From positions 1-12,094 of IMG/VR virus record IMGVR_UViG_2657245634_000013: a DNA stretch of 12,094 nucleotides, one strand, 5' to 3'. The notes under the pieces were generated by a model. That model made no database searches. It had not been told where the DNA came from and was given only the letters and a program-made list of their open reading frames with translations. Made by a program: the position numbers and the translations under genes. Origin of the DNA: a virus. Its lineage: Duplodnaviria > Heunggongvirae > Uroviricota > Caudoviricetes. Positions 1-12,063 of this stretch are shown here, in pieces; the stretch's first letter is position 1; each line of letters begins with the position of its first letter.

Positions 1-168
1 ATCATCGTAGTGAGCCAGTTGCCGGTGGAAAACTGGTACAAAATGATCGGAGACTCCACACATGCGGATGCCATCCTAGATCGACTGGTTCATGGCAGTA
101 TCAAGATCGAACTTAAAGGAGAATCAATGCGGAAAATACAATCTCCGTTGACCGAAGGAGATCAGTGA
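1..168 (+). CDS. IS21-family IstB-like helper ATPase, C-terminal fragment (5' end lies outside the window)
   Basis: Frame 1 is open from the window edge to TGA at 166-168 and translates to ...PVENWYKMIGDSTHADAILDRLVHGSIKIELKGESMRKIQSPLTEGDQ. The AILDRLxH ... KGESxR pattern is the conserved C-terminus of IstB proteins as I recall them. Not in the ORF track because it has no start codon in the window. Confidence 0.55.
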   Translation: MIVVSQLPVENWYKMIGDSTHADAILDRLVHGSIKIELKGESMRKIQSPLTEGDQ

Positions 169-253
169 AGGTAATTTAAAAACGGTTCTGTGAAAGTGAC
201 ACGAACCGATCTCCATCGATGTTACTCACCGATCTCCTTCACGGTAATACGCA
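1..253 (+). mobile_element. Right end of an IS21-family insertion sequence (istB 3' end plus terminal region); the exact terminus is uncertain, roughly 240-260
   Basis: IstB-like C-terminus followed by a non-coding stretch with the motif CCGATCTCC repeated directly at 215-223 and 232-240. Multiple subterminal repeats are typical of IS21-family ends. The terminus itself cannot be fixed without a reference copy. Confidence 0.4.
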
Positions 254-262
254 TTTTTCCCT

Positions 263-658
263 GTGGAGCTTAAAATCGCTTATCAGGAATCCGGCGAATG
301 GCCCGATGATGGAATCGAAATTGACGACACTGTTGCCGCCGAATTTATGAAGGAAGCACCAGAAGGAAAATACAGAGGTGTCATCGACGGAATGCCTGCA
401 TGGATTGATATTCCACCGCCAACTCATGAGGAACAAATTGCCGCAGCCGAACTGGAAAAGCAGCAATTGATTAATCAGGTCAACGAATACATAAACAGTA
501 AGCAATGGCCTGGTAAAGCGGCGATTGGTCGCCTGAAAGGTGAGGAACTGGCGCAATATAATTTGTGGCTGGATTATCTGGACACACTGGAACTGGTCGA
601 TACTTCCGGTGCGCCAGATATTGAATGGCCTACGCCTTCGGCAGTTCAGGCCAGATGA
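263..658 (+). pseudogene. Phage tail fibre assembly protein (Tfa/U-like chaperone), apparently 5'-truncated
   Basis: Translation ends ...LDTLELVDTSGAPDIEWPTPSAVQAR, the typical Tfa C-terminal motif (DTS.APD..WP). The frame opens only at 248 just after a TAA; the first possible start is a GTG at 263 with no RBS. The product is shorter (131 aa) than the neighbouring 185-aa Tfa and sits right against the IS end. Confidence 0.6.
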
Positions 659-1187
659 CATCCGGCGCAGTGCTGGTATCTGTTACCGTCACCGCGTCAA
701 TATAATCCAGCACGGCGTTAAGTCGGGTTGTTTCTGCCTGCGTCAGCTTCCGCCCGGCCTGTAATTTCAGTTGAATCAGACTGATGGAAGCCATTGCAGC
801 ATCAATCAGCGACTGGCGCTGTGCTTCTGCCGCGTCTAGTGCGGCACTATGCTGTGCCTCAGTATCTGTCATCCATTTCTCACCATCCCATTTATCGTAT
901 GGCGTTAACGGTGAAAGCGTGACATAACCGTCTTTGATGGCACCGATATAATCCACTGTAACAGCTACGCCATTTTCGATTGAGTAAACAGTCTCATTGC
1001 GGTGGTCTTCTTCATGGCTCCATCCCTTACCCGTAAATACTGCCACTTTCCCCGGAATGTATTCGCCCGGGTCAATACCAGTGGAACAGGCGGGCATACT
1101 TACGCCAGTATTAATATATTCATCAGACCAGCCCGAATATTCAGACGTTACTGCATCATAATAAAAACAACGCATATCACCCGGCAC
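630..1187 (-). CDS. Phage tail fibre assembly protein (alternative Tfa/U'-like chaperone of the invertible segment)
   Basis: 185-aa ORF ending ...LDYIDAVTVTDTSTAPDVIWPELPKA (Tfa C-terminal motif). It lies immediately downstream of the minus-strand tail-fibre exon and overlaps the plus-strand tfa convergently at 630-658. Start is GTG at 1187 or ATG at 1175. Confidence 0.75.
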   Translation of the reverse strand: MPGDMRCFYYDAVTSEYSGWSDEYINTGVSMPACSTGIDPGEYIPGKVAVFTGKGWSHEEDHRNETVYSIENGVAVTVDYIGAIKDGYVTLSPLTPYDKWDGEKWMTDTEAQHSAALDAAEAQRQSLIDAAMASISLIQLKLQAGRKLTQAETTRLNAVLDYIDAVTVTDTSTAPDVIWPELPKA

Positions 1188-1223
1188 TGTAGCCAGCCCA
1201 TTTTCATCAAAAAACAGGTTTCA

Positions 1224-1730
1224 TTATGCAGCCCTCACAATATAATTAAAGGCGATGTTACGTGGACGGTTTTCATTAGCTGTTGGCACGACACGAGAGG
1301 CGTCGAATCCAAGGTCATCGGTTTTGCCTATATCAGTTGTGTTATTCGGCATTCTCGCAGATCGTGTTCCTGCATCATAAAAAGCCCCTCTGATTGCATC
1401 AAAAGACATACCGATCCCGCCATCTGCGAATCCCTCAATATTTCTTATTGCATCCCCCTGTGAAGATAATAATTGTCGCCCGGCATCCACTCCACGTCCG
1501 TCATCCCAGCCACGAATAAATTCACCGCGTAAATCAGGCAATTTATTTGTCGGATAAACCTTTGCCAGTTCCGGGTATTCTTCAGCAGAAAAAGCCGCAC
1601 CGTTGCATTTCAGCCAGCCAGTAGGCGGTGTGGCTGAAGGCCACGGAACAGGCACACCAACGGGTAATGCCGAACCTTCTCCCAAACCAACGTTTATGAA
1701 AATGCAGAGATAACGGCTAACTGGCATCAT
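1224..1730 (-). CDS. Tail-fibre variable C-terminal exon (Mu S'v / P2 H C-terminus-like), silent orientation; the real tail-fibre portion is about 1224-1675
   Basis: Contains PVGVPVPWPSATPPTGWLKCNGAAFSAEEYPELAKVYPTNKLPDLRG and the C-terminal ...NIAFNYIVRAA, both characteristic of P2 H / Mu S variable domains. The first ~18 codons lie outside the crossover site and the frame is closed by TAA just upstream, as expected for the non-expressed copy of an invertible tail-fibre gene. Confidence 0.8.
   Translation of the reverse strand: MMPVSRYLCIFINVGLGEGSALPVGVPVPWPSATPPTGWLKCNGAAFSAEEYPELAKVYPTNKLPDLRGEFIRGWDDGRGVDAGRQLLSSQGDAIRNIEGFADGGIGMSFDAIRGAFYDAGTRSARMPNNTTDIGKTDDLGFDASRVVPTANENRPRNIAFNYIVRAA
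1676..1701. other. Putative DNA-invertase crossover site (gix/hix/pix-like)
   Basis: TTCTCCCAAACC-AA-CGTTTATGAAAA: two imperfectly inverted 12-bp half-sites around a 2-bp core, similar to hixL TTCTTGAAAACC-AA-GGTTTTTGATAA and gix TTATCCAAAACC-TC-GGTTTACAGGAA (quoted from memory). It sits at the constant/variable boundary of the tail-fibre exon and next to the invertase gene. Confidence 0.55.
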
Positions 1731-1757
1731 CTCCGGTTTTTATTCAGGGGGATGATC

Positions 1758-2351
1758 ATGCTTATTGGCTATGTACGCGTGTCAACAAATGACCAGAACA
1801 CGGAATTGCAGAGTAATGCGCTGGAGTGTGCAGGATGTGAGCTGATTTTTGAGGATAAAATCAGCGGCTCGAAGTCCGACAGGCCGGGGCTGAAAAAACT
1901 GCTCAGGACACTATCGGCAGGAGACACGTTGGTTGTCTGGAAGCTGGACAGACTGGGGCGCAGTATGCGGCATCTCGTTACGCTGATAGAAGAGTTGCGC
2001 CAGCGTGGTGTGAATTTCAGAAGCCTGACTGACAGTATTGATACCAGTACCCCAATGGGCCGTTTCTTTTTTCATGTCATGGGTGCCCTGGCTGAAATGG
2101 AGCGAGAACTCATTGTCGAGCGGACACGCGCAGGACTGGAAGCGGCCAGAGCCAAAGGTCGTATTGGTGGCAGACGACCGAAACTCACCGCGAGAGAGTG
2201 GGAGCAGGCAGGACGGTTGCTGGCTGCGGGGGAATCTCGTCAACGTGTGGCGCTGATTTTTGATATTGGCCTGTCCACGCTCTATAAAAAATTCCCCTCA
2301 TCAGCGACAAAGAATAAATTGTGTCATCCCTTAGCCAACCGGGACAAATAG
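1758..2351 (+). CDS. Serine DNA invertase of the Gin/Hin/Pin/Cin family
   Basis: MLIGYVRVSTNDQNTELQ...VVWKLDRLGRSMRHL...MGRFFFHVMGALAEMERELIVERT...GRIGGRRPKL...STLYKKFP: resolvase/invertase catalytic N-terminus with the catalytic Ser in VRVSTNDQ and a C-terminal HTH; closely resembles e14 Pin as recalled. The ATG at 1758 is preferred over 1752 because AGGGGG at 1744-1749 gives better RBS spacing. Confidence 0.9.
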   Translation: MLIGYVRVSTNDQNTELQSNALECAGCELIFEDKISGSKSDRPGLKKLLRTLSAGDTLVVWKLDRLGRSMRHLVTLIEELRQRGVNFRSLTDSIDTSTPMGRFFFHVMGALAEMERELIVERTRAGLEAARAKGRIGGRRPKLTAREWEQAGRLLAAGESRQRVALIFDIGLSTLYKKFPSSATKNKLCHPLANRDK

Positions 2352-2380
2352 CCTGACATCTCCGGCACAACTGAAAATAC
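2321..2380 (+). promoter_or_regulatory. Possible Ogr-dependent P2-type late promoter for the FI-FII-E-T-U-D operon
   Basis: TGT(2323-2325)-N12-AAC partial dyad about 50 bp upstream of a -10-like GAAAAT (2374-2379), 30 bp before the FI start. This resembles the P2 late-promoter architecture (TGT-N12-ACA centred near -55) but the match is imperfect. Confidence 0.25.
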
Positions 2381-2410
2381 CACTCACCCATTAACCACGG
2401 AGTTAAACGG

Positions 2411-3601
2411 ATGAGTGACTATCATCACGGCGTGCAGGTGCTGGAGATTAACGACGGCACCCGCGTCATTTCCACCGTATCCACTGCCATTGTCGGCATG
2501 GTCTGCACGGCCAGCGATGCGGATGCGGAAATCTTCCCCCTCAATAAACCGGTGCTGATCACCAATGTGCAGAGCGCGATTGCAAAGGCCGGTAAAAAAG
2601 GCACGCTGGCGGCATCGTTGCAGGCCATCGCTGACCAGTCAAAACCGGTCACCGTTGTCGTGCGCGTGGAAGACGGCACCGGCGACGACGAAGAAACGAA
2701 ACTCGCGCAGACCGTTTCCAATATCATCGGCACCACTGACGAAAACGGTCAGTACACCGGACTGAAAGCCCTGCTGGCGGCGGAGTCGGTTACCGGTGTT
2801 AAACCGCGTATTCTCGGTGTGCCGGGACTGGACACCAAAGAGGTGGCGGTTGCACTGGCATCAGTCTGTCAGAAGCTGCGCGCTTTCGGGTATATCAGCG
2901 CATGGGGCTGTAAAACCATTTCCGAGGTGAAAGCCTACCGCCAGAATTTCAGCCAGCGTGAGCTGATGGTCATCTGGCCGGATTTCCTCGCATGGGATAC
3001 GGTCGCCAGTACCACCGCCACCGCGTATGCCACCGCCCGTGCGCTGGGCCTGCGCGCTAAAATCGACCAGGAGCAGGGCTGGCATAAAACGCTGTCCAAC
3101 GTCGGGGTAAACGGTGTTACCGGCATCAGTGCCTCTGTATTCTGGGATTTGCAGGAGTCCGGCACCGATGCTGACCTGTTGAACGAGTCAGGTGTCACAA
3201 CGCTGATTCGCCGTGACGGTTTCCGATTCTGGGGTAACCGTACCTGCTCTGATGACCCGCTGTTCCTCTTTGAAAACTACACCCGCACCGCGCAGGTGCT
3301 GGCCGACACGATGGCTGAGGCGCACATGTGGGCGGTGGACAAGCCCATCACCGCAACGCTGATTCGCGACATCGTTGACGGCATCAATGCCAAATTTCGT
3401 GAGCTGAAAACAAACGGCTATATCGTGGATGCGACCTGCTGGTTCAGCGAAGAATCCAACGATGCGGAAACCCTTAAGGCCGGAAAACTGTATATCGACT
3501 ACGACTATACCCCGGTTCCTCCTCTTGAAAACCTGACCCTGCGCCAGCGTATTACCGATAAATACCTGGCAAATCTGGTCACCTCGGTTAACAGCAATTA
3601 A
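2411..3601 (+). CDS. FI: Contractile tail sheath protein (P2 gpFI)
   Basis: 396-aa ORF beginning MSDYHHGVQVLEINDGTRVISTVSTAIVGMVCTASDADAE..., essentially matching P2 FI as recalled; same length as P2 FI; GGAG RBS at 2400-2403. Confidence 0.95.
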   Translation: MSDYHHGVQVLEINDGTRVISTVSTAIVGMVCTASDADAEIFPLNKPVLITNVQSAIAKAGKKGTLAASLQAIADQSKPVTVVVRVEDGTGDDEETKLAQTVSNIIGTTDENGQYTGLKALLAAESVTGVKPRILGVPGLDTKEVAVALASVCQKLRAFGYISAWGCKTISEVKAYRQNFSQRELMVIWPDFLAWDTVASTTATAYATARALGLRAKIDQEQGWHKTLSNVGVNGVTGISASVFWDLQESGTDADLLNESGVTTLIRRDGFRFWGNRTCSDDPLFLFENYTRTAQVLADTMAEAHMWAVDKPITATLIRDIVDGINAKFRELKTNGYIVDATCWFSEESNDAETLKAGKLYIDYDYTPVPPLENLTLRQRITDKYLANLVTSVNSN

Positions 3602-3613
3602 GGAGCCTGACCG

Positions 3614-4132
3614 ATGGCAATGCCGCGCAAACTCAAGTTAATGAACGTCTTTCTGAACGGCTACAGCTATCAGGGCGTTGCAAAGTCCGTCACGCTGCCA
3701 AAACTGACCCGTAAACTCGAAAACTATCGCGGTGCGGGGATGAACGGAAGCGCACCGGTAGACCTCGGCCTTGATGACGATGCGCTGTCAATGGAGTGGT
3801 CGCTCGGGGGCTTCCCGGATTCGGTTATCTGGGAGCTTTACGCCGCAACCGGCGTGGATGCCGTACCGATTCGTTTTGCAGGCTCTTACCAGCGCGACGA
3901 TACCGGCGAAACGGTAGCCGTTGAAGTGGTCATGCGTGGACGTCAGAAAGAAATCGACACCGGCGAGGGTAAACAGGGAGAAGACACCGAGTCGAAAATC
4001 TCCGTAGTCTGCACCTATTTCCGGCTGACGATGGACGGTAAGGAGCTGGTCGAAATCGACACCATCAACATGATTGAGAAGGTGAACGGCGTCGACCGGC
4101 TGGAGCAACACCGCCGCAATATCGGCCTGTAA
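3614..4132 (+). CDS. FII: Tail tube protein (P2 gpFII)
   Basis: 172-aa ORF MAMPRKLKLMNVFLNGYSYQGVAKSVTLPKLTRKLENYRGAG... directly after the sheath gene; AAGGAG RBS at 3599-3604; length equals P2 FII. Confidence 0.95.
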   Translation: MAMPRKLKLMNVFLNGYSYQGVAKSVTLPKLTRKLENYRGAGMNGSAPVDLGLDDDALSMEWSLGGFPDSVIWELYAATGVDAVPIRFAGSYQRDDTGETVAVEVVMRGRQKEIDTGEGKQGEDTESKISVVCTYFRLTMDGKELVEIDTINMIEKVNGVDRLEQHRRNIGL

Positions 4133-4188
4133 TTTTCATCCGGTCAGTCAGGCTGACCGGTTAACCCCGATTCAGAAGTGAGAAAACC

Positions 4189-4464
4189 ATGAACAAAGAA
4201 AATGTCATTACCCTGGACAATCCGGTCAAACGTGGTGAGCAGGTTATCGAACAGGTCACGCTGATGAAACCCAATGCCGGGACGCTGCGCGGTGTCAGTC
4301 TGGCAGCGGTCGCGAACTCCGAAGTCGATGCACTGATTAAGGTGCTGCCGCGCATGACGGCACCGATGCTGACCGAGCAGGAAGTCGCCGCGCTGGAACT
4401 GCCTGACCTTGTGGCGCTGGCCGGTAAGGTGGTCGGTTTTTTGTCGCCGAACTCGGTGCAGTGA
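4189..4464 (+). CDS. E: Tail assembly chaperone (P2 gpE)
   Basis: 91-aa ORF MNKENVITLDNPVKRGEQVIEQVTLMKPNAG... in the position and size of P2 E; contains the TTTTTTG slippery heptamer near its 3' end. Confidence 0.9.
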   Translation: MNKENVITLDNPVKRGEQVIEQVTLMKPNAGTLRGVSLAAVANSEVDALIKVLPRMTAPMLTEQEVAALELPDLVALAGKVVGFLSPNSVQ

Positions 4465-4616
4465 CGTTTCCAAAAAATCTCTCGGTCGATGACCTGATGG
4501 CGGATGTGGCAGTGATATTTCACTGGCCGCCATCAGAACTGTATCCCATGAGCCTGACCGAACTCATCACATGGCGCGAAAAGGCGCTCCGGCGAAGCGG
4601 AAACACGAATGAGTAA
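4189..4616 (+). CDS. Tail assembly chaperone frameshift product (P2 gpE+E'), made by -1 ribosomal frameshift at T_TTT_TTG (4437-4443)
   Basis: After a -1 slip at 4437-4443 the new frame stays open and reads ...FVAELGAVTFPKNLSVDDLMADVAVIFHWPPSELYPMSLTELITWREKALRRSGNTNE, ending at TAA 4614-4616 and overlapping the T start. This is the conserved E/E' (lambda G/GT-type) arrangement. Confidence 0.8.
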
Positions 4617-7056
4617 CAATGTAAAATTACAGGTATTGCTCAGGGCTGTTGACCAGGCATCCCGCCCGTTTAAATCCATCCGCACAGCGAGTAAGTCGCT
4701 GTCGGGGGATATCCGGGAAACACAAAAATCACTGCGCGAGCTGAACGGTCAGGCATCCCGTATTGAGGGATTCCGCAAGACCAGTGCACAGCTCGCCGTG
4801 ACTGGTCATGCACTTGAAAAGGCACGGCAGGAGGCCGAAGCCCTTGCCACACAGTTTAAAAATACCGAACGTCCGACCCGTGCTCAGGCGAAAGTGCTGG
4901 AATCCGCAAAGCGTGCGGCGGAGGACTTACAGGCGAAATATAACCGCCTGACGGATTCCGTTAAACGCCAGCAGCGGGAACTGGCCGCTGTGGGAATTAA
5001 TGCCCGCAATCTTGCACATGATGAGCAGGGACTGAAAAACCGTATCAGTGAAACCACCGCACAACTTAACCGTCAGCGCGACGCGCTGGCGCGTGTCAGT
5101 GCGCAACAGGCAAAACTTAACGCAGTAAAACAGCGTTATCAGGCCGGAAAGGAACTGGCCGGAAATATGGCCTCAGTAGGCGCTGCCGGTGTGGGGATTG
5201 CGGCGGCGGGAACGATGGCCGGAGTTAAGTTGCTGATGCCCGGTTATGAGTTTGCGCAGAAAAACTCAGAATTGCAGGCCGTGCTAGGTGTGGCAAAAGA
5301 CTCCGCCGAAATGGCTGCACTACGCAAGCAGGCGCGCCAGCTCGGCGACAACACCGCCGCCTCGGCGGATGATGCTGCCGGTGCACAGATTATTATCGCG
5401 AAAGCCGGTGGGGATGTTGATGCCATTCAGGCGGCAACGCCGGTCACGCTGAATATGGCGCTGGCGAACCGTCGCACGATGGAAGAAAACGCCGCCCTGC
5501 TGATGGGGATGAAATCCGCCTTTCAGCTTTCAAACGATAAGGTCGCTCATATCGGGGATGTTCTCTCCATGACGATGAACAAAACCGCCGCCGATTTTGA
5601 CGGCATGAGCGATGCGCTGACCTATGCCGCACCTGTGGCAAAAAATGCCGGTGTCAGCATTGAAGAAACCGCCGCAATGGTCGGGGCGCTGTATGATGCA
5701 AAAATCACAGGCTCAATGGCGGGGACGGGAAGCCGTGCCGTGTTAAGCCGCCTGCAGGCACCGACGGGAAAAGCATGGGATGCACTCAAAGAGCTTGGAG
5801 TGAAAACCTCAGACAGCAAGGGAAACACCCGACCAGTATTTACCATTCTGAAAGAAATGCAGGCCAGTTTTGAGAAAAACCGGCTCGGTACTGCCCAGCA
5901 GGCTGAATACATGAAAACTATTTTCGGGGAGGAGGCCAGCTCAGCCGCCGCCGTGCTGATGACTGCCGCCTCAACCGGAAAGCTGGACAAACTGACCGCT
6001 GCGTTTAAAGCCTCAGACGGGAAGACCGCCGAGCTGGTAAATATCATGCAGGACAACCTCGGCGGTGACTTTAAAGAGTTTCAGTCCGCTTATGAGGCGG
6101 TGGGGACTGACCTGTTTGACCAGCAGGAAGGCGCACTGCGTAAGCTCACGCAGACGGCCACAAAGTATGTGTTAAAACTCGACGGCTGGATACAGAAAAA
6201 CAAATCACTGGCGTCAACCATCGGCATCATTGTCGGTGGTGCACTGGCACTGATTGGTGTCATCGGTGCCATTGGCCTCGTAGCCTGGCCGGTTATCACC
6301 GGCATCAATGCCATCATCGCGGCAGCAGGCGCAATGGGGGCAGTCTTCACGACGGTTGGCAGTGCTGTTATGACCGCCATCGGGGCTATTAGCTGGCCGG
6401 TTGTGGCCGTGGTGGCCGCAATTGTCGCCGGGGCGTTGCTTATCCGTAAATACTGGGAGCCTGTCAGCACATTCTTTGGCGGTGTGGTGGAAGGGCTGAA
6501 AGCGGCATTTGCGCCGGTGGGGGAACTGTTCACGCCACTTAAGCCGGTGTTTGACTGGCTGGGCGAAAAGTTACAGGCCGCGTGGCAGTGGTTTAAAAAC
6601 CTGATCGCCCCGGTTAAAGCCATCCAGGACACCCTGAACCGTTGCCGTGACACGGGCGTCATGTTCGGGCAGGCACTGGCTGACGCGTTGATGCTGCCGC
6701 TTAATGCGTTCAACAAACTGCGCAGTGGTATTGACTGGGTACTGGAAAAACTCGGTGTTATCAACAAAGAGTCAGACACACTTGACCAGACCGCCGCCAG
6801 AACTCATGCCGCCACGTATGGCACCGGTGGTTATATTCCGGCGACCAGCTCTTATGCAGGCTATCAGGCTTATCAGCCGGTTACGGCACCGGCTGGCCGC
6901 TCTTATGTGGACCAGAGTAAAAACGAATATCACATCAGTCTGACGGGCGGTACTGCGCCGGGGACTCAGCTCGACCGCCAGTTACAGGATGCGCTCGAAA
7001 AATACGAGCGGGATAAACGTGCGCGCGCCCGTGCCAGCATGATGCATGACGGTTAA
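4609..7056 (+). CDS. T: Tail tape measure protein (P2 gpT)
   Basis: 815-aa ORF with an N-terminal coiled-coil-rich region and a long Gly/Ala-rich hydrophobic segment (aa about 530-600), typical of tape measure proteins. Same length and position as P2 T. Confidence 0.95.
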   Translation: MSNNVKLQVLLRAVDQASRPFKSIRTASKSLSGDIRETQKSLRELNGQASRIEGFRKTSAQLAVTGHALEKARQEAEALATQFKNTERPTRAQAKVLESAKRAAEDLQAKYNRLTDSVKRQQRELAAVGINARNLAHDEQGLKNRISETTAQLNRQRDALARVSAQQAKLNAVKQRYQAGKELAGNMASVGAAGVGIAAAGTMAGVKLLMPGYEFAQKNSELQAVLGVAKDSAEMAALRKQARQLGDNTAASADDAAGAQIIIAKAGGDVDAIQAATPVTLNMALANRRTMEENAALLMGMKSAFQLSNDKVAHIGDVLSMTMNKTAADFDGMSDALTYAAPVAKNAGVSIEETAAMVGALYDAKITGSMAGTGSRAVLSRLQAPTGKAWDALKELGVKTSDSKGNTRPVFTILKEMQASFEKNRLGTAQQAEYMKTIFGEEASSAAAVLMTAASTGKLDKLTAAFKASDGKTAELVNIMQDNLGGDFKEFQSAYEAVGTDLFDQQEGALRKLTQTATKYVLKLDGWIQKNKSLASTIGIIVGGALALIGVIGAIGLVAWPVITGINAIIAAAGAMGAVFTTVGSAVMTAIGAISWPVVAVVAAIVAGALLIRKYWEPVSTFFGGVVEGLKAAFAPVGELFTPLKPVFDWLGEKLQAAWQWFKNLIAPVKAIQDTLNRCRDTGVMFGQALADALMLPLNAFNKLRSGIDWVLEKLGVINKESDTLDQTAARTHAATYGTGGYIPATSSYAGYQAYQPVTAPAGRSYVDQSKNEYHISLTGGTAPGTQLDRQLQDALEKYERDKRARARASMMHDG

Positions 7057-7070
7057 GGAGGTGACGAAAA

Positions 7071-7550
7071 ATGATGCTCGCGTTAGGTATGTTTGTTTTT
7101 ATGCGCCAGACGCTGCCACACCAGACCATGCAGCGTGAATCAGATTATCGCTGGCCGTCAAATTCCCGTATCGGTAAACGGGATGCCTTTCAGTTTCTCG
7201 GTGTTGGCGAGGAAAACATCACGCTTGCCGGTGTGCTTTATCCCGAACTGACCGGCGGAAAGCTGACGATGACCACGCTCAGGCTGATGGCAGAGGAAGG
7301 CCGGGCGTGGCCGTTGCTGGATGGCACAGGCATGATTTACGGCATGTATGTCATCAGCAGGGTGAGTGAAACAGGGAGTATTTTCTTTGCAGACGGCACA
7401 CCCCGGAAAATTGATTTTACGCTGTCGCTCACCCGCGTGGATGAATCACTGGCCGCGCTTTATGGCGATATCGGTAAACAGGCGGAGTCGCTCATCGGTA
7501 AAGCTGGCAGTATGGCGACCAGATTCACGGGTATGACGGGGGCGGGATAA
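7071..7550 (+). CDS. U: Tail protein (P2 gpU)
   Basis: 159-aa ORF after T with AAGGAGG RBS at 7055-7061; its stop overlaps the D start (TAATG), indicating translational coupling. Length and order as in P2. Confidence 0.9.
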   Translation: MMLALGMFVFMRQTLPHQTMQRESDYRWPSNSRIGKRDAFQFLGVGEENITLAGVLYPELTGGKLTMTTLRLMAEEGRAWPLLDGTGMIYGMYVISRVSETGSIFFADGTPRKIDFTLSLTRVDESLAALYGDIGKQAESLIGKAGSMATRFTGMTGAG

Positions 7551-8713
7551 TGCTGGATGCACTGACATTTGATGCAGGCAGTACGCTGACGCCGGATTAC
7601 ATGCTGATGCTCGACAGCAGGGATATTACCGGCAATATCAGCGACCGTCTGATGAGTATGACCCTGACGGATAGCCGGGGCTTTGAGGCTGACCAGCTTG
7701 ATATTGAACTGAACGATGCCGACGGGCAGGTCGGGCTGCCGGTTCGTGGTGCTGTTCTGACGGTGTATATCGGCTGGAAAGGTTTTGCCCTGGTATGCAA
7801 AGGGAAATTCACCGTTGATGAGGTTGAACACCGGGGCGCGCCGGATGTTGTCACCATCCGCGCCCGGAGTGCAGATTTTCGCGGGACGCTCAATTCCCGC
7901 CGTGAAGGCTCATGGCATGACACCACGCTCGGTGCGATTGTTGAGGCGATAGCCTCCCGTAACAGGCTGAAAGCCAGTGTCGCTCCGTCACTGGCCGGAA
8001 TTAAAATCCCGCACATCGACCAGTCGCAGGAGTCTGATGCGAAATTCCTGACCCGTCTTGCAGAACGCAACGGCGGTGAGGTGTCGGTAAAAATGGGAAA
8101 ACTGTTGTTTCTCAAAGCGGGGCAGGGGGTGACGGCCAGCGGTAAAAAAATCCCGCAGATTACCATCACCCGCAGCGACGGCGACCGCCATCATTTTGCG
8201 ATTGCTGACCGTGGAGCCTATACCGGCGTAACGGCAAAGTGGTTACACACCAAAGACCCGAAGCCGCAAAAGCAGAAGGTAAAACTGAAACGCAAAAAGA
8301 AAGAAAAACACCTGCGCGCACTGGAGCACCCGAAAGCAAAACCGGTCAGGCAGAAGAAAGCGCCAAAAGTACCGGAAGCGCGCGAAGGTGAATACATGGC
8401 CGGTGAGGCTGACAACGTTTTTGCCCTGACCACGGTATATGCCACGAAAGCACAGGCCATGCGTGCCGCTCAGGCGAAGTGGGATAAACTGCAACGGGGC
8501 GTTGCGGAGTTCTCCATCAGCCTGGCTACCGGTCGTGCAGATATTTACACGGAAACACCGGTCAGAGTGTCAGGCTTTAAGCGCGTCATAGACGAGCAGG
8601 ACTGGACCATCACTAAGGTGACACATTTTCTGAATAATAGCGGCTTCACGACGTCCTTAGAGCTTGAGGTCAGGCTTTCTGATGTGGAGTACGAAACAGA
8701 AGATGATGAGTGA
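7550..8713 (+). CDS. D: Tail protein D (P2 gpD, late control gene D)
   Basis: 387-aa ORF MLDALTFDAGSTLTPDYMLMLDSRDITGNISDRLMSMTLTDSRGFEADQLDIELNDADG... with a Lys-rich linker; length and position as in P2 D. Confidence 0.95.
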   Translation: MLDALTFDAGSTLTPDYMLMLDSRDITGNISDRLMSMTLTDSRGFEADQLDIELNDADGQVGLPVRGAVLTVYIGWKGFALVCKGKFTVDEVEHRGAPDVVTIRARSADFRGTLNSRREGSWHDTTLGAIVEAIASRNRLKASVAPSLAGIKIPHIDQSQESDAKFLTRLAERNGGEVSVKMGKLLFLKAGQGVTASGKKIPQITITRSDGDRHHFAIADRGAYTGVTAKWLHTKDPKPQKQKVKLKRKKKEKHLRALEHPKAKPVRQKKAPKVPEAREGEYMAGEADNVFALTTVYATKAQAMRAAQAKWDKLQRGVAEFSISLATGRADIYTETPVRVSGFKRVIDEQDWTITKVTHFLNNSGFTTSLELEVRLSDVEYETEDDE

Positions 8714-8794
8714 CGTTTTTATTTTATCTATTTGTTTTATAAGGATAAATTAACTAAAATGGCACCATCAACAAAACCGGAAGAGGTGCTCGCG

Positions 8795-9013
8795 ATGTTT
8801 CATTGTCCTTTATGCCAGCATGCCGCACATGCGCGTACAAGCCGCTATATCACTGACACGACAAAAGAGCGTTATCATCAGTGCCAGAACGTGAATTGCA
8901 GTGCCACGTTCATCACTTATGAGTCGGTACAGCGATACATCGTGAAGCCGGGAGAAGTCCACGCCGTAAGGCCGCACCCGTTGCCGTCAGGGCAGCAAAT
9001 TATGTGGATGTGA
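8795..9013 (+). CDS. ogr: Late gene transcriptional activator Ogr (zinc-finger)
   Basis: 72-aa product MFHCPLCQHAAHARTSRYITDTTKERYHQCQNVNCSATFITYESVQRYIVKPGEVHAVRPHPLPSGQQIMWM with the Cys-X2-Cys...Cys-X4-Cys zinc-binding motif. The ORF-track start at 8732 is an in-frame upstream extension; the ATG at 8795 gives the canonical 72-aa Ogr. Confidence 0.95.
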   Translation: MFHCPLCQHAAHARTSRYITDTTKERYHQCQNVNCSATFITYESVQRYIVKPGEVHAVRPHPLPSGQQIMWM

Positions 9014-9023
9014 TCACAAAAAT

Positions 9024-9050
9024 AGCCCCTCAGTTGAGGGGCTTTATTTA
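9024..9050 (+). terminator. Rho-independent terminator downstream of ogr
   Basis: Stem AGCCCCTC / GAGGGGCT with loop AGTT, followed by TTTATTTA, starting 11 bp after the ogr stop. Confidence 0.7.
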
Positions 9051-9056
9051 TGGTCG

Positions 9057-9075
9057 ATGTGGACGTTATGTGGAC
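9057..9075 (+). repeat. Tandem direct repeat ATGTGGAC-gtt-ATGTGGAC (11-bp spacing); candidate integrase arm-type binding sites in the prophage att arm
   Basis: Exact 8-bp repeat at 9057-9064 and 9068-9075, in non-coding DNA between the last phage gene and host sequence. Confidence 0.45.
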
Positions 9076-9081
9076 AGTGGT

Positions 9082-9103
9082 TGATATAAATCCATTTATA
9101 TCA
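9082..9103. repeat. Perfect 10-bp inverted repeat TGATATAAAT-cc-ATTTATATCA in the att region
   Basis: Exact palindrome read directly from the sequence; AT-rich; lies between the direct repeats and the host-like terminator. Confidence 0.6.
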
Positions 9104-9111
9104 TCAGGTTA

Positions 9112-9168
9112 GGTGCTTTTTTGTGACACCATCCCTGTCTTCCCCCACATGATGTGGGGGTTTTTTTT
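9112..9168 (+). ncRNA. Possible CpxQ-like sRNA remnant (3' UTR of cpxP); 5' boundary uncertain
   Basis: Terminator hairpin plus upstream GACACCATCCCTGTCTTCCCCC, recalled as the conserved part of CpxQ; no cpxP coding sequence is visible upstream, consistent with the prophage junction lying at the cpxP 3' end. This is from memory and unverified. Confidence 0.35.
9142..9168 (+). terminator. Rho-independent terminator, probably the host cpxP terminator (3' end of the CpxQ sRNA region)
   Basis: Stem CCCCCACAT / ATGTGGGGG followed by eight T residues. The preceding GACACCATCCCTGTCTTCCCCC matches my recollection of the cpxP 3' UTR / CpxQ, and fieF lies directly downstream as in the E. coli cpxP-fieF arrangement. 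Confidence 0.6.
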
Positions 9169-9249
9169 ATCCTCAATTTGCCTGCTGCTTAATGCATTGC
9201 AGATGATTTGCTTCCGTTATACTAGCGTCAGTTGATAGCGGGAGTATTT

Positions 9250-9867
9250 ATGAATCAATCTTATGGACGGCTGGTCAGTCGGGCGGCGATTGCTGCGACG
9301 GCGATGGCTTCGTTGCTATTGCTGATTAAAATTTTTGCATGGTGGTATACCGGGTCGGTGAGTATTCTCGCCGCGCTGGTGGATTCGCTGGTGGATATCG
9401 GCGCGTCGTTGACGAATTTACTGGTGGTGCGATATTCCCTGCAACCTGCCGACGATAATCACTCGTTTGGTCACGGTAAAGCAGAGTCCCTCGCGGCGCT
9501 GGCGCAAAGTATGTTTATCTCCGGTTCGGCACTATTCCTGTTTTTGACGGGTATTCAACATCTGATATCTCCAACACCGATGACAGATCCAGGCGTCGGG
9601 GTTATCGTGACAATTGTGGCGCTAATTTGTACGATTATCCTTGTCTCGTTTCAGCGTTGGGTGGTGCGCCGGACGCAAAGCCAGGCGGTGCGGGCTGATA
9701 TGCTACATTACCAGTCTGATGTTATGATGAACGGCGCAATTCTGCTGGCGCTGGGGTTGTCCTGGTACGGCTGGCATCGCGCCGATGCTCTGTTTGCATT
9801 GGGAATCGGCATCTATATTTTATATAGCGCGTTACGCATGGGATATGAGGCGGTACAGTCATTACTG
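9250..9867 (+). pseudogene. fieF: Cation-diffusion-facilitator ferrous iron/zinc efflux protein FieF (YiiP), 3'-truncated after about codon 206
   Basis: [86 protein letters not shown]... matches FieF up to ...[10 protein letters not shown]; GGAG RBS at 9242-9245. After about 9867 the frame continues only as antisense read-through of the autotransporter gene, and the cytoplasmic C-terminal domain (expected DRALPDEERQ...) is absent. Confidence 0.85.
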
Positions 9868-12063
9868 GCTGTGACCATTCATATCCAGTTCAGTCTCTGC
9901 CGCCAGACGCAGTTCATGGGTATTACCCAACACGTTATCGTTATTCAACAAAAGCGTCCCACTGCGCAGATCGGTAACACCGGTATAGTCGTTGTCTTTG
10001 TTAGAAAGCGATACGGTCTGACCCTTCTGGCTGCTGAATGCCAGGTCACCACTGCCGGTAATCTTTGCGCTGAGATCGGCGGCATTCTCGCTTTTACCGT
10101 TAGAGCTCAGCACCAGAGCATCGCTGTCGGTAGCGTGTAAATCAAGCTGGGTCAGGCCGTAACCGATATACAGACCGTCATTGTTTACCCCACTCGTCAG
10201 ACGATAGTCGTAAGTGCCGACGGCCGCTTTTTGCCCATTCTGCTGAATATCACGTTGGGCACTGCTGGAGAGGATTTGCCCATTTTTATCCTGCAATTGC
10301 AGATTGCCCGCATCGCCCAGAACTTCCGCACCTTGCGCATCAACCAACTTAATGGTGCTGTTACCATCATCGACTTCAGTGAGCGATAACGCAGAGTCAA
10401 TATCACGAGATACTGAGCTTACAACGTCACTGTCAGAAACCTGAATCACACCCTCGCCGCGCAAATCCAGCGTTTTACTAACGTTGACCGTCCCTTCTGT
10501 CATCTGTGCACCTGCTGTCAGGGCACCAAAATCAACGGTTCCGCCGGAGAATCCCAAAGTGCTAATGGAGTGAGCGCCCTTACCCACTATTACCTGGCTT
10601 CCCTGACCCGCAGTGATCCCGCCTCTCTGCAGAAACTCAGCATTCTTTTCCAGGTTAAATGTCGTGTTCTGGAACGCCAGTGAACCCTGGAACCAGTCTG
10701 TATAAGCAAACTCATCGAAGGAGAATTCGTGATTCCCCATGTTTATTTCAACAATACCTCTACCTTGAAGATCGTTATCAAATACCCAATCTTTATTGGC
10801 ATTGATTTGCAGTTTGCCATCAACATCCAGGTCCGCACGGCCGATGTTCTTGTCTTCAGAAATAACCGCGACAGCACCAGAAGCGACATCAATATATCCG
10901 CTGAATGCATAGTTATTGCCGGTCAGTGCCACTGTCCCACTGTCGATACTTATTGTACCATTGCCGGAAATCTTATTGGCAAAGGTCATGCTATCGTCAG
11001 CCTTCAGGTGTAATTTCCCGCGGTTGTTGATCTCTGCTGTACCTATATTTTGGGTGATCCCTAAAGCGCCATTTTGCTCAATTTTGACTTTACCACTAAA
11101 GGCAGAGTTATCACCGGTTAAGTAAGTCGTGCCATTGAGCGCATTGATATAGCCCAGGCCCTCGCTGCCACTGACAATATCCGCGGAAATAGTCGCGTTT
11201 TTATCCGTGTGGTTTAAGGTGATTTTCTTATCGGATGTCTTTGCCCACACAAACTCAATTTTTTCGGCATCAATAATCCCTGCAGCCTTCGCAGCACTTC
11301 CTTCCTGTGCACCTAACGCTAACTCAGAGTTGGTGCTTAAACTAATTTTCGGTGCGGATATTTTACCTCCATCTGATACGACTAATGTTGTATCAGAACG
11401 TTGGTCGTAATAACCCAGGCTAATATGTTCACGAGCATTAACTTCACCGCCGTTATTAACTGACAGGTACTGATTACCACCGTAACTGCCGTAAACGCCC
11501 ATAAAGAAGGTTTTAGAATTTACCTGGCTGCCTTCACCACTGACATTTCCCTGCAAATAGGTCAGACGGCTGGTGCCCTTAACATGGATTTTGCCGCCGT
11601 TGGAGACATTAAAATAGCCGCGATCGTGTCTCATGCCTGAGTTTGACTCATACAAATCATCAGCATATAACTCGCTGCCAGCATTGGAGACATTCAGGAA
11701 CCCCGTACCTTTCAGCAAAAAGTTAAGTGGGCCATTGATAGTTACCTTTCCTCCGGTAATATCCAACCCACCACCAGAAGCGAGAGTCAGACGCGGACGG
11801 GAAGTATCTGTCGCATTGATTACCAGATTGGCATTGTCAGTCACCGTAATACGGTAATCGATGCTCTGGTTCTCTTTGCCAAAATCAATAGTTTTATCCT
11901 GGTTTACGATGACATCATCGGCGAATACCAGAGATGAATATAAACTTATCGCGCTAATTAAAACAGCCCGGGACTTTTTTCCTTTTACTCTGCTCCCCAG
12001 CTCCGAGCAGACGCTCCAACAGTTACGGGACCTGTTCCACTTTAGCCGATATATTTTATTCAT
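9862..12063 (-). pseudogene. Autotransporter adhesin (type Va), signal peptide plus beta-helical passenger domain, 3'-truncated (no beta-barrel translocator)
   Basis: N-terminus MNKIYRLKWNRSRNCWSVCSELGSRVKGKKS... is an extended signal peptide region (ESPR) typical of autotransporters, followed by a Gly/Asn/Ser/Thr-rich repetitive passenger (GNxxxSG-type beta-helix repeats). The ORF ends ...ELDMNGHSQ with its stop codon supplied by fieF-derived sequence at 9862-9864. Lower GC than the flanking sequence. The likely start is the ATG at 12061-12063, not the track start at 12087. Confidence 0.75.

What the first reader, a model, noticed from the sequence alone, without database searches (positions are those of the whole stretch)
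1676..1701. Candidate invertase crossover site inside the tail-fibre exon
TTCTCCCAAACC-AA-CGTTTATGAAAA has the 12-2-12 architecture and strong half-site similarity to hix/gix sites. It lies where the constant/variable junction of the tail fibre is expected, about 55 bp from the invertase start. Only this right-hand site is in the window, so the segment is predicted to be inversion-incompetent unless a partner exists left of the IS.
Basis: partly seen in the sequence, partly recalled or inferred. Interest (0 to 1): 0.4.

Follow-up and report, generated by a model that had tools for sequence, protein, structure and literature searches.

The report
Known pixR invertase crossover site
The 26-base sequence is a real, already well-known recombination site (identical to pixR of the E. 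coli e14 prophage) at which a neighbouring DNA invertase flips a tail-fibre gene cassette of a P2-like prophage, and sister genomes show that the cassette still flipped after an insertion sequence landed inside it.

Summary
It lies 55 nt upstream of an intact serine invertase gene (1758-2351).

It is 26/26 identical to the published pixR site of the Pin system of prophage e14. K-12 e14 carries it 54 nt upstream of pinE. The window's invertase is 86% identical to PinE.

- **Partner in relatives:** intact P2-like relatives have the same 26-mer plus an inverted partner (TTCTCCCAAACC-AA-GGTATACGAGAA) inside tail-fibre gene H, at the constant/variable junction.
- **Flip states:** two near-clonal prophages (L003, L004) are the two orientations of one 1.8-kb segment. 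Their breakpoints fall within the 15-bp perfect inverted repeat that holds the AA core.
- **Window:** it is a whole draft contig. An ISEc12 (1-253) interrupts the segment, so no partner site is in the window.
- **Flip after the IS:** sister assemblies with the identical IS junction (100% over 1-1690) switch exactly after the AA core (1690) into the constant part of H. The IS-bearing segment therefore inverted after the IS arrived, which implies a partner left of the IS.

Its leaning towards "inversion-incompetent" is probably wrong. This is an ordinary, known kind of element.

The parts
1677..1702 (.). pixR-type 26-bp recombination site. Inner half-site is 1677-1688 (TTCTCCCAAACC), 2-bp core is AA at 1689-1690, outer half-site is 1691-1702 (CGTTTATGAAAA).
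   Evidence: Unique exact match. 26/26 identical to published pixR and to K-12 e14. Flip-state breakpoints map here.
1676..1690 (.). 15-bp stretch (CTTCTCCCAAACCAA) that is a perfect inverted repeat of the left site in relatives. Natural crossovers are confined to this interval.
   Evidence: L003 vs L004. Window vs L010/L012 diverge after 1690, and the L010-to-L004 alignments overlap at 1676-1690.
1758..2351 (+). Pin-type serine DNA invertase, 197 aa. Catalytic Ser9 lies in YVRVSTNDQ. Q150/R153/L154 correspond to the Fis-contact residues Q151/R154/L155 of Hin.
   Evidence: Pfam Resolvase 2.2e-52 plus HTH_7. Gin structures 3uj3/4m6f at E 7e-93. 86% identity to PinE. Residues read from the translation against PMC3798978.
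1780..1842 (+). Candidate Fis-dependent recombinational enhancer. Two Fis-consensus-like 15-mers (1780-1794 and 1828-1842) have centres 48 bp apart, 97.5 and 145.5 bp from the site centre.
   Evidence: Motif scan; the same pair sits at the same codons in e14 pinE. Such a pair arises in 83 of 5000 shuffles. This is an inference by homology, not a demonstration.
1224..1690 (-). Silent alternative variable C-terminal tail-fibre cassette (Collar domain). It reads ...V/L-GLGEGSALPV... from the crossover to the stop at 1224-1226. It is fused to the constant part of H only in the flipped state.
   Evidence: ORF and translation. Pfam Collar. It is part of the 430-aa H in L003 and L010.
630..1224 (-). 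Tail-fibre assembly chaperone gene (197-aa type) that goes with the Collar cassette. It carries a +1 frameshift in an A6/T6 run at 1209-1214.
   Evidence: Pfam Caudo_TAP. T6 here versus T5 in L003/L004, shared by all IS-lineage contigs.
254..658 (+). Tail-fibre assembly chaperone gene (146-aa type), 5'-truncated. Its first 12 codons are separated from the rest by the IS.
   Evidence: Alignment to L004 8498 onwards. Pfam Caudo_TAP.
1..253 (+). Right end of ISEc12 (IS21 family; 3' end of istB plus the terminal repeat). It lies inside the invertible segment, and the contig ends here.
   Evidence: 99.6% identity to ISEc12 copies. The terminus was mapped against the full 2581-bp copy in L015.

Best explanation
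Window 1677-1702 is the invertase-proximal (right) crossover site of an invertible tail-fibre segment in a P2-like prophage. In sequence it is pixR of the Pin system.

**Mechanism, inferred from the Hin/Gin family.**
- Dimers of the adjacent serine invertase bind this site and an inverted partner inside tail-fibre gene H.
- Together with a Fis-bound enhancer in the 5' end of the invertase gene, they form an invertasome on supercoiled DNA.
- All four strands are cut at the central AA/TT with 2-nt staggers, through phosphoserine links.
- One subunit pair rotates 180 degrees and the ends are religated.
- This swaps which C-terminal receptor-binding cassette, and which cognate chaperone gene, follows the constant 276 codons of H.

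**In this genome.** A 2.6-kb ISEc12 sits inside the segment, after codon 12 of one chaperone gene. That puts the partner about 3 kb left of window base 254, beyond the contig end. The enlarged segment, estimated at about 4.4 kb, was still invertible: sister assemblies with the same IS junction are found in both orientations.

**Shown versus inferred.** Shown: site identity, the position of the partner in relatives, natural flip isomers with breakpoints at the site, and the flip after the IS insertion. Inferred: the chemistry at the AA core, the dependence on Fis and the enhancer, and the presence of the partner in this particular assembly.
For: - **Site identity.** 26/26 identity to published pixR. 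The same 26-mer lies 54 nt upstream of pinE in K-12 e14, with pixL inverted inside stfP.
- **Invertase.** It has Resolvase and HTH_7 domains, matches Gin structures at E 7e-93 and is 86% identical to PinE.
- **Partner in relatives.** Intact relatives L001, phage pro483 (L002), L003 and L004 have the identical 26-mer plus an inverted partner, TTCTCCCAAACC-AA-GGTAT(A/G)CGAGAA, inside H.
- **Flip states.** L003 and L004 are identical on the left flank. The 1.8-kb segment between the sites is inverted with 2 mismatches, and the breakpoints are confined to the 15-bp perfect inverted repeat.
- **Reading frame.** Both cassettes are in frame across the core: CTT|GGT TTG GGA GAA gives L-GLGE.
- **Source contig.** The window equals contig CCBW01000016.1 of GCA_000939035.1.
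- **Flip after the IS.** L010 and L012 share the IS junction and 1690 bp at 100%. They then switch after the AA core to the left-site outer half and Hc, collinear with the prophage for 5.1 kb in L010.
- **Enhancer.** A Fis-like motif pair sits 48 bp apart about 100 bp from the site, conserved in pinE. This matches the geometry described for Hin.
- **Frequency.** The site with its flanks occurs in about 1700 of 5426 complete E. coli genomes.
Against: - The partner site was not seen in the source assembly itself, because the contig stops inside the IS.
- These draft assemblies contain patchy joins. L012 runs from 79 bp of Hc into mhpE, and the window itself jumps from fieF into ehaA at 9868. An assembly path through a repeated cassette cannot be fully excluded as the origin of the 'flipped' contigs.
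- The comparison narrows the crossover only to 15 bp, not to the AA dinucleotide.
- The Fis-site evidence is weak: a degenerate motif, chosen post hoc, in a conserved coding sequence.
- No sigma-70-like promoter for the invertase was found by the simple scan.
Confidence: 0.9

Rival explanations
1. Orphan relic: the site is a genuine pixR, but in this genome the IS-associated event removed the left part of the segment. No partner remains and the segment is frozen.
For: No partner exists anywhere in the 12-kb contig. The segment is IS-disrupted, and the second chaperone gene is frameshifted, so the module is decaying. Other assemblies appear to hold an orphan site plus invertase: in L005 the ybfA flank is joined 65 bp left of the site.
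Against: The same IS junction is found in both orientations in sister assemblies, with the switch exactly at the core. Whichever state is ancestral, a genome with the window's arrangement had both sites after the IS arrived. A later deletion would be an extra, unsupported event.
Confidence: 0.07
2. The 'flipped' contigs L010 and L012 are assembly chimeras, or products of homologous exchange between two similar prophage cassettes in one genome. They would then not be invertase products, and say nothing about competence.
For: L012 and the window itself contain unexpected joins. Contig breaks near W1530 and W1611-1614 in other assemblies suggest that part of the Collar cassette is repeated in these genomes.
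Against: The sequence shared between the two sites is only 15 bp, too short to mislead k-mer assemblers or to support RecA exchange. Two assemblies give the identical join. L010 is collinear with the prophage for 5.1 kb beyond the join and carries the IS-lineage alleles, including the T6 frameshift. The join coincides with the breakpoints seen between the independent genomes L003 and L004.
Confidence: 0.03
3. Chance resemblance: an A/T-rich palindrome-like sequence in coding DNA with no role in recombination.
For: None beyond the general frequency of AAAC/GTTT-like words: 7 loose matches against 2.8 expected.
Against: 26/26 identity to an experimentally defined site. 0 of 200 shuffles match. 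It sits in a conserved position next to the invertase in e14, pro483 and many prophages. Inversion breakpoints map to it.
Confidence: 0

Closest known systems
Pin / pixL-pixR, invertible P segment of cryptic prophage e14 (E. coli K-12)
   Same: The right site is identical (26/26), and the inner half plus AA core of the left site are identical. It lies at the same distance from the invertase start (54 vs 55 nt). The invertase is 86% identical. The layout is the same: constant tail-fibre part, site, cassette, tfa, tfa' (reverse), cassette' (reverse), site, invertase. About 80% DNA identity runs across cassette start, site and invertase.
   Different: The host element is a P2-like (Peduovirus-type) prophage with sheath, tube, tape-measure, D and ogr genes, not e14. 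The left-site outer half differs from pixL at 3 positions (23/26). The invertase has a 13-aa longer C-terminus. An ISEc12 lies inside the segment.
Escherichia phage pro483 and related P2-like prophages (e.g. E. coli M160133; L003/L004)
   Same: Same gene order H-tfa-tfa'-Hv'-invertase-FI, and an identical 26-mer with an inverted partner in H. The invertase is annotated in pro483. The window is 99.99% identical to L003 over 1676-9868.
   Different: Those copies are intact. The window's copy has the IS insertion and a chaperone frameshift, and its left part is not on the contig.
Gin/gix (Mu G segment), Cin/cix (P1 C segment), Hin/hix (Salmonella H segment), Min/mix (p15B), PinB/bix (Shigella boydii)
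   Same: The 26-bp 12-2-12 sites fit the Din consensus, with a Fis/enhancer-dependent small serine invertase. In Mu, P1 and p15B the switch also changes tail-fibre C-termini. The window's invertase aligns end to end with the Gin crystal-structure sequence.
   Different: Site identity is only 16-20/26. gix and bix have a GA core, not AA. Hin switches a flagellin promoter, not a tail fibre.
Phage SKA5 (Mu/e14-like morphogenesis genes)
   Same: It carries the same invertible cassette at 98.8% identity. The inner half-sites and AA core are identical, and homology to the window ends inside the site.
   Different: The outer right half-site is different (CCTTTCAAATAT) and the invertase is only 53% identical. 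The phage backbone is different. This shows that the cassette is a shared module bounded by the sites.

Membership tests
Din-family (Hin/Gin/Cin/Pin) invertase recombination sites | 26-bp site: two imperfectly inverted 12-bp half-sites around a 2-bp core | tested here: met
   TTCTCCCAAACC-AA-CGTTTATGAAAA at 1677-1702. It matches the dix consensus with 1 mismatch, and is the only such match in the window.
Din-family (Hin/Gin/Cin/Pin) invertase recombination sites | Sequence identity to an experimentally defined member | tested here: met
   26/26 to pixR as tabulated in PMC3241671 Table 3 and to K-12 e14 L014 4106-4131.
Din-family (Hin/Gin/Cin/Pin) invertase recombination sites | A second site in inverted orientation with the same core dinucleotide on the same DNA molecule | tested here: inconclusive
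   Absent from the window. Present with an AA core in relatives L001-L004. Implied in this lineage by L010/L012, but not seen in the source assembly.
Din-family (Hin/Gin/Cin/Pin) invertase recombination sites | Adjacent small serine recombinase of the invertase subclass (catalytic Ser, C-terminal HTH, Fis-contact residues) | tested here: met
   Resolvase and HTH_7 domains. E 7e-93 to Gin structures. 86% identity to PinE. Ser9 and Q150/R153/L154 are present.
Din-family (Hin/Gin/Cin/Pin) invertase recombination sites | Inversion actually occurs, with breakpoints at the site | tested here: met
   L003 vs L004: the segment is inverted and the breakpoints lie within the 15-bp inverted repeat. Window/L011 vs L010/L012 show the same with the IS inside. 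This is comparative evidence, not experimental.
Din-family (Hin/Gin/Cin/Pin) invertase recombination sites | Fis-bound recombinational enhancer in cis, natively in the 5' part of the invertase gene about 100 bp from the proximal site | tested here: inconclusive
   Two Fis-like 15-mers lie 48 bp apart at +97.5 and +145.5 from the site centre, conserved in pinE. 1.7% of shuffles give such a pair. The motif is degenerate and the test was post hoc.
Din-family (Hin/Gin/Cin/Pin) invertase recombination sites | Double-strand cleavage with a 2-nt stagger at the central dinucleotide, via a 5'-phosphoserine intermediate | not testable with these tools
   The comparison confines the exchange to 1676-1690, which includes the core at 1689-1690. 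The chemistry needs an in vitro cleavage assay.
P2-like (Peduoviridae) prophage tail module | Gene order H-G...FI-FII-E-E'-T-U-D-ogr, with the E/E' slippery site | tested here: met
   Pfam calls on the contig: sheath, tube, TAC_7, GpE, tape measure, GpU, GPD, Ogr_Delta. GGTTTTTTG at 4435-4443. 92-96% DNA identity to pro483 and to the E. coli M160133 prophage.

The most novel reading that the evidence does not exclude
The tail-fibre switch no longer serves a viable phage: one chaperone gene is split by ISEc12 and the other is frameshifted. Yet it is kept flipping with an IS riding inside it. It might be retained for the host's benefit, as recently reported for the e14 P segment, where inversion at the same pix sites creates a chimeric Stf protein that blocks phage T2 adsorption (PMC12529663; bioRxiv 10.1101/2025.03.28.646004). 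Nothing here tests such a function.
Probability: 0.07. Interest if true: 0.45.

Novelty: already known. Interest (0 to 1): 0.12.

Why it matters
The finding matters little beyond correct annotation.

- **Annotation.** The site is a textbook Din-family crossover site, and about a third of complete E. coli genomes carry it. The 167-aa 'phage tail protein' ORF upstream of the invertase is a silent C-terminal cassette, not a gene with its own start.
- **Assemblies.** Contigs from such loci can differ between sister isolates simply through flipping.
- **IS inside the segment.** Pin-type inversion tolerates a 2.6-kb IS inside the segment. This is expected, since natural segments range from about 1 to 4.2 kb.
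- **Drafts.** Absence of a partner site from a draft contig is not evidence of inversion incompetence.

Tried and rejected
- **Junction scan.** A genome-contig scan for the exact IS-tfa junction found nothing. The source is a non-representative E. coli draft.
- **Complete genomes.** The 5426 complete E. coli genomes hold no copy with this IS junction. The best matches start at W251-254, at 96% identity.
- **Finding the source.** An exact-protein look-up of the truncated 131-aa chaperone found the source contig and its sister contigs.
- **Left-hand contig.** I could not retrieve the complementary contig (Hc-pixL-gp53-like cassette-IS left end) of the source assembly. Look-ups are limited to proteins encoded in the window. 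A look-up of the common H protein would probably be collapsed into the intact-prophage context, so I ran no further search on it.
- **NCBIfam.** It gave only distant below-cutoff recombinase hits for the invertase and nothing for the fibre proteins.
- **Promoter scan.** No sigma-70-like promoter was found at 1550-1800, so I make no claim that an invertase promoter overlaps the site.
- **Other contig ends.** I considered that contig ends in L006-L008 near the site might mark mixed-orientation populations. The ends (W1331, W1614, W1697) do not coincide with the fork expected at 1676, so I dropped this as evidence.
- **Orphan site in L005.** I considered it a possible invertase-mediated deletion. 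The join is 65 bp left of the site, not at the core, so there is no support.

Full report
**1. The observation**

The 26-mer TTCTCCCAAACCAACGTTTATGAAAA occurs exactly once in the window, at 1677-1702.
- No other copy exists on either strand with up to 3 mismatches, and 0 of 200 shuffles gave a match.
- None was found with up to 7 substitutions.
- The Din-family consensus matches only this position in the window.
- The site ends 55 nt before the ATG (1758) of a 197-aa serine recombinase.
- It lies in the 5' part of a minus-strand ORF with a phage tail Collar domain.
- No inverted partner is in the window.

**2. What the window is**

The window is the whole 12,094-bp contig CCBW01000016.1 of the draft assembly GCA_000939035.1 (100% identity).

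| Window position | Strand | Feature |
|---|---|---|
| 1-253 | + | Right end of ISEc12 (IS21 family) |
| 254-658 | + | 146-aa-type tail-fibre chaperone gene, lacking its first 12 codons |
| 630-1224 | - | 197-aa-type chaperone gene, with a +1 frameshift in a T run |
| 1224-1690 | - | Collar-type variable tail-fibre cassette |
| 1677-1702 | . | The site |
| 1758-2351 | + | Invertase |
| from 2411 | + | P2-type genes FI, FII, E/E', T, U, D and ogr |
| from 9250 | + | fieF |

The DNA is E. coli. ehaA is 100% identical to many strains. The prophage is 96% identical to one in E. coli M160133 and about 92% identical to phage pro483.

**3. Identity of the site**

- Table 3 of PMC3241671 lists pixR of the Pin system as TTCTCCCAAACC AA CGTTTATGAAAA. 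That is 26/26 identical to the window site.
- In E. coli K-12 MG1655 the same 26-mer lies 54 nt upstream of pinE in prophage e14. pixL lies inverted inside stfP.
- Identity to the other family sites is lower: pixL 21, hixL 20, cixL 19 and gix 17 of 26.
- The adjacent protein has Resolvase and HTH_7 domains. It aligns over 182 residues with the Gin sequences of PDB 3uj3 and 4m6f at E 7e-93, and is 86% identical to PinE.
- It keeps the catalytic serine (Ser9 in YVRVSTNDQ).
- It also keeps the Q/R/L triad that PMC3798978 describes as uniquely conserved in Fis-dependent invertases.

**4. The partner site and natural inversion in relatives**

- In the intact relatives L001, L002 (pro483), L003 and L004 the identical 26-mer lies next to the invertase.
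- Its best inverted repeat lies inside tail-fibre gene H: TTCTCCCAAACC-AA-GGTAT(A/G)CGAGAA when read on the minus strand. This is 23/26 identical to pixL.
- L003 and L004 are near-clonal, with a left flank 100% identical over 8,088 bp. The segment between the sites is inverted between them, with only 2 mismatches under inversion mapping.
- Direct identity runs to 8115 and resumes at 9919. The exchange is therefore confined to the 15-bp perfect inverted repeat TTGGTTTGGGAGAAG / CTTCTCCCAAACCAA, which contains the TT/AA core.
- The gene calls agree. H is 430 aa with a Collar end in L003 and 394 aa with a gp53-like end in L004, and the two chaperone genes are swapped.
- The core falls in codon 276 of H (CTT), followed by GGT TTG GGA GAA. 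Both cassettes join in frame as L-GLGE.

**5. Is the segment in this genome inversion-dead?**

An exact look-up of the truncated chaperone found four further contigs with the same IS junction. All are 100% identical to the window over the shared part, including the frameshift.
- L011 continues like the window into the invertase.
- L010 (6,784 bp) and L012 are identical to the window up to base 1690, the second A of the core. They then read GGTATACGAGAA, the outer half of the left site.
- L010 continues into the constant part of H and on through I, J, W and V. It is 100% identical to L004 for 5.1 kb.

This is what inversion of a segment containing the IS predicts. The shared IS junction, frameshift and SNPs argue for one insertion event followed by at least one flip. 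Whichever state is ancestral, a genome arranged like the window had both sites after the IS arrived.

| Quantity | Value |
|---|---|
| Left-site core to the IS insertion point, in L004 | about 0.4 kb (8101/8102 to 8497/8498) |
| Full ISEc12 | 2,581 bp |
| Site-to-site distance in intact relatives | 1,831 bp |

From these I estimate that the partner lies about 3 kb left of window base 254, and that the segment is now about 4.4 kb.

Caveats:
- The partner was not seen in the source assembly itself.
- These drafts contain odd joins. L012 runs from 79 bp of Hc into mhpE, and the window jumps from fieF into ehaA.
- I consider an assembly artefact unlikely. The two sites share only 15 bp, two assemblies give the same join, and the join coincides with the L003/L004 breakpoints.

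**6. Mechanism**

By membership in the Hin/Gin/Cin/Pin family, the mechanism is inferred rather than shown.
- Invertase dimers bind at the two sites.
- A Fis-bound enhancer assembles an invertasome on supercoiled DNA.
- Ser9 cleaves at the AA/TT core.
- One subunit pair rotates 180 degrees and the ends are religated (summarised from PMC3798978).

A candidate enhancer is present. Two Fis-consensus-like 15-mers are centred 97.5 and 145.5 bp from the site centre, 48 bp apart, within the first 85 bp of the invertase gene. e14 pinE has the same pair at the same codons. A pair with this geometry arises in 1.7% of shuffles. This is compatible with the roughly 100-bp hixL-to-Fis-site distance described for Hin, but it is weak, post hoc evidence in a conserved coding region.

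**7. Comparison and novelty**

- This is the Pin/pix system in a P2-like prophage. The arrangement is already present and annotated in phage pro483.
- The site with its flanks occurs in about 1,700 of 5,426 complete E. coli genomes.
- The same cassette, bounded by the same inner half-sites, also occurs in the Mu/e14-like phage SKA5. There the outer half-site differs and the invertase is 53% identical. The segment is thus a shared module.
- Nothing about the site is new.
- The only mildly notable point is that an IS-laden and otherwise decaying segment still flipped.

**8. Verdict**

- The interpretation as a crossover site at the constant/variable junction is correct.
- The predicted inversion incompetence is probably wrong.
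- Novelty: already known. Interest: low.

Noticed in passing
window 9865-9869: Homology to fieF and its prophage flank (L003) stops at 9868, near fieF codon 206, so the ZT_dimer domain is lost. From 9865 the contig is 100% identical to ehaA on the opposite strand, giving a 4-bp overlap. This is either a real rearrangement or a chimeric draft contig.
   Followed up: partly
window 1209-1214 (minus-strand gene 630-1224): The 197-aa-type tail-fibre chaperone gene has a T6 run where L003 and L004 have T5. This puts a stop after codon 5 (ATG AAA CCT GTT TTT TGA). All five IS-lineage contigs share it. Together with the IS in the other chaperone gene, both fibre chaperones look damaged.
   Followed up: partly
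window 1-253; L015 873-3453: The ISEc12 right end abuts TTTTTCCC in the window. A full 2,581-bp copy elsewhere (L015) is flanked by a GTTTTTC duplication next to TTTTTCCC-like sequence. This hints at a T5C-type target preference.
   Followed up: no
window 4435-4443: GGTTTTTTG lies at the end of the E (tail chaperone) gene, where the overlapping E' frame begins. This is the classical P2 E/E+E' -1 frameshift signal.
   Followed up: no
L005 9843-9854 (= window about 1611); L007 starts at window 1614: In GCA_000753155.1 the chromosomal ybfA flank is joined 65 bp left of the site, leaving an apparent orphan pixR plus invertase. An unrelated assembly has a contig end at almost the same base. This suggests a repeat boundary inside the Collar cassette, or a shared deletion end-point.
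   Followed up: partly
L012 1770-2031: The sister contig runs from 79 bp of the constant H part straight into 134 bp of mhpE, and then into a multi-copy sequence. This indicates patchy or chimeric joins in these draft assemblies.
   Followed up: partly
L016 (phage SKA5) 2092-3948: A phage with Mu/e14-like morphogenesis genes carries the same invertible cassette at 98.8% identity, but with a different outer right half-site and an invertase only 53% identical. The cassette appears to be exchanged as a module bounded by the inner half-sites.
   Followed up: partly
L003/L004 3913-4698; L010 5093-5878: A 261-aa ORF without Pfam hits sits on the opposite strand between the S and V genes of this P2-like prophage. 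It is a likely cargo (moron) gene.
   Followed up: no
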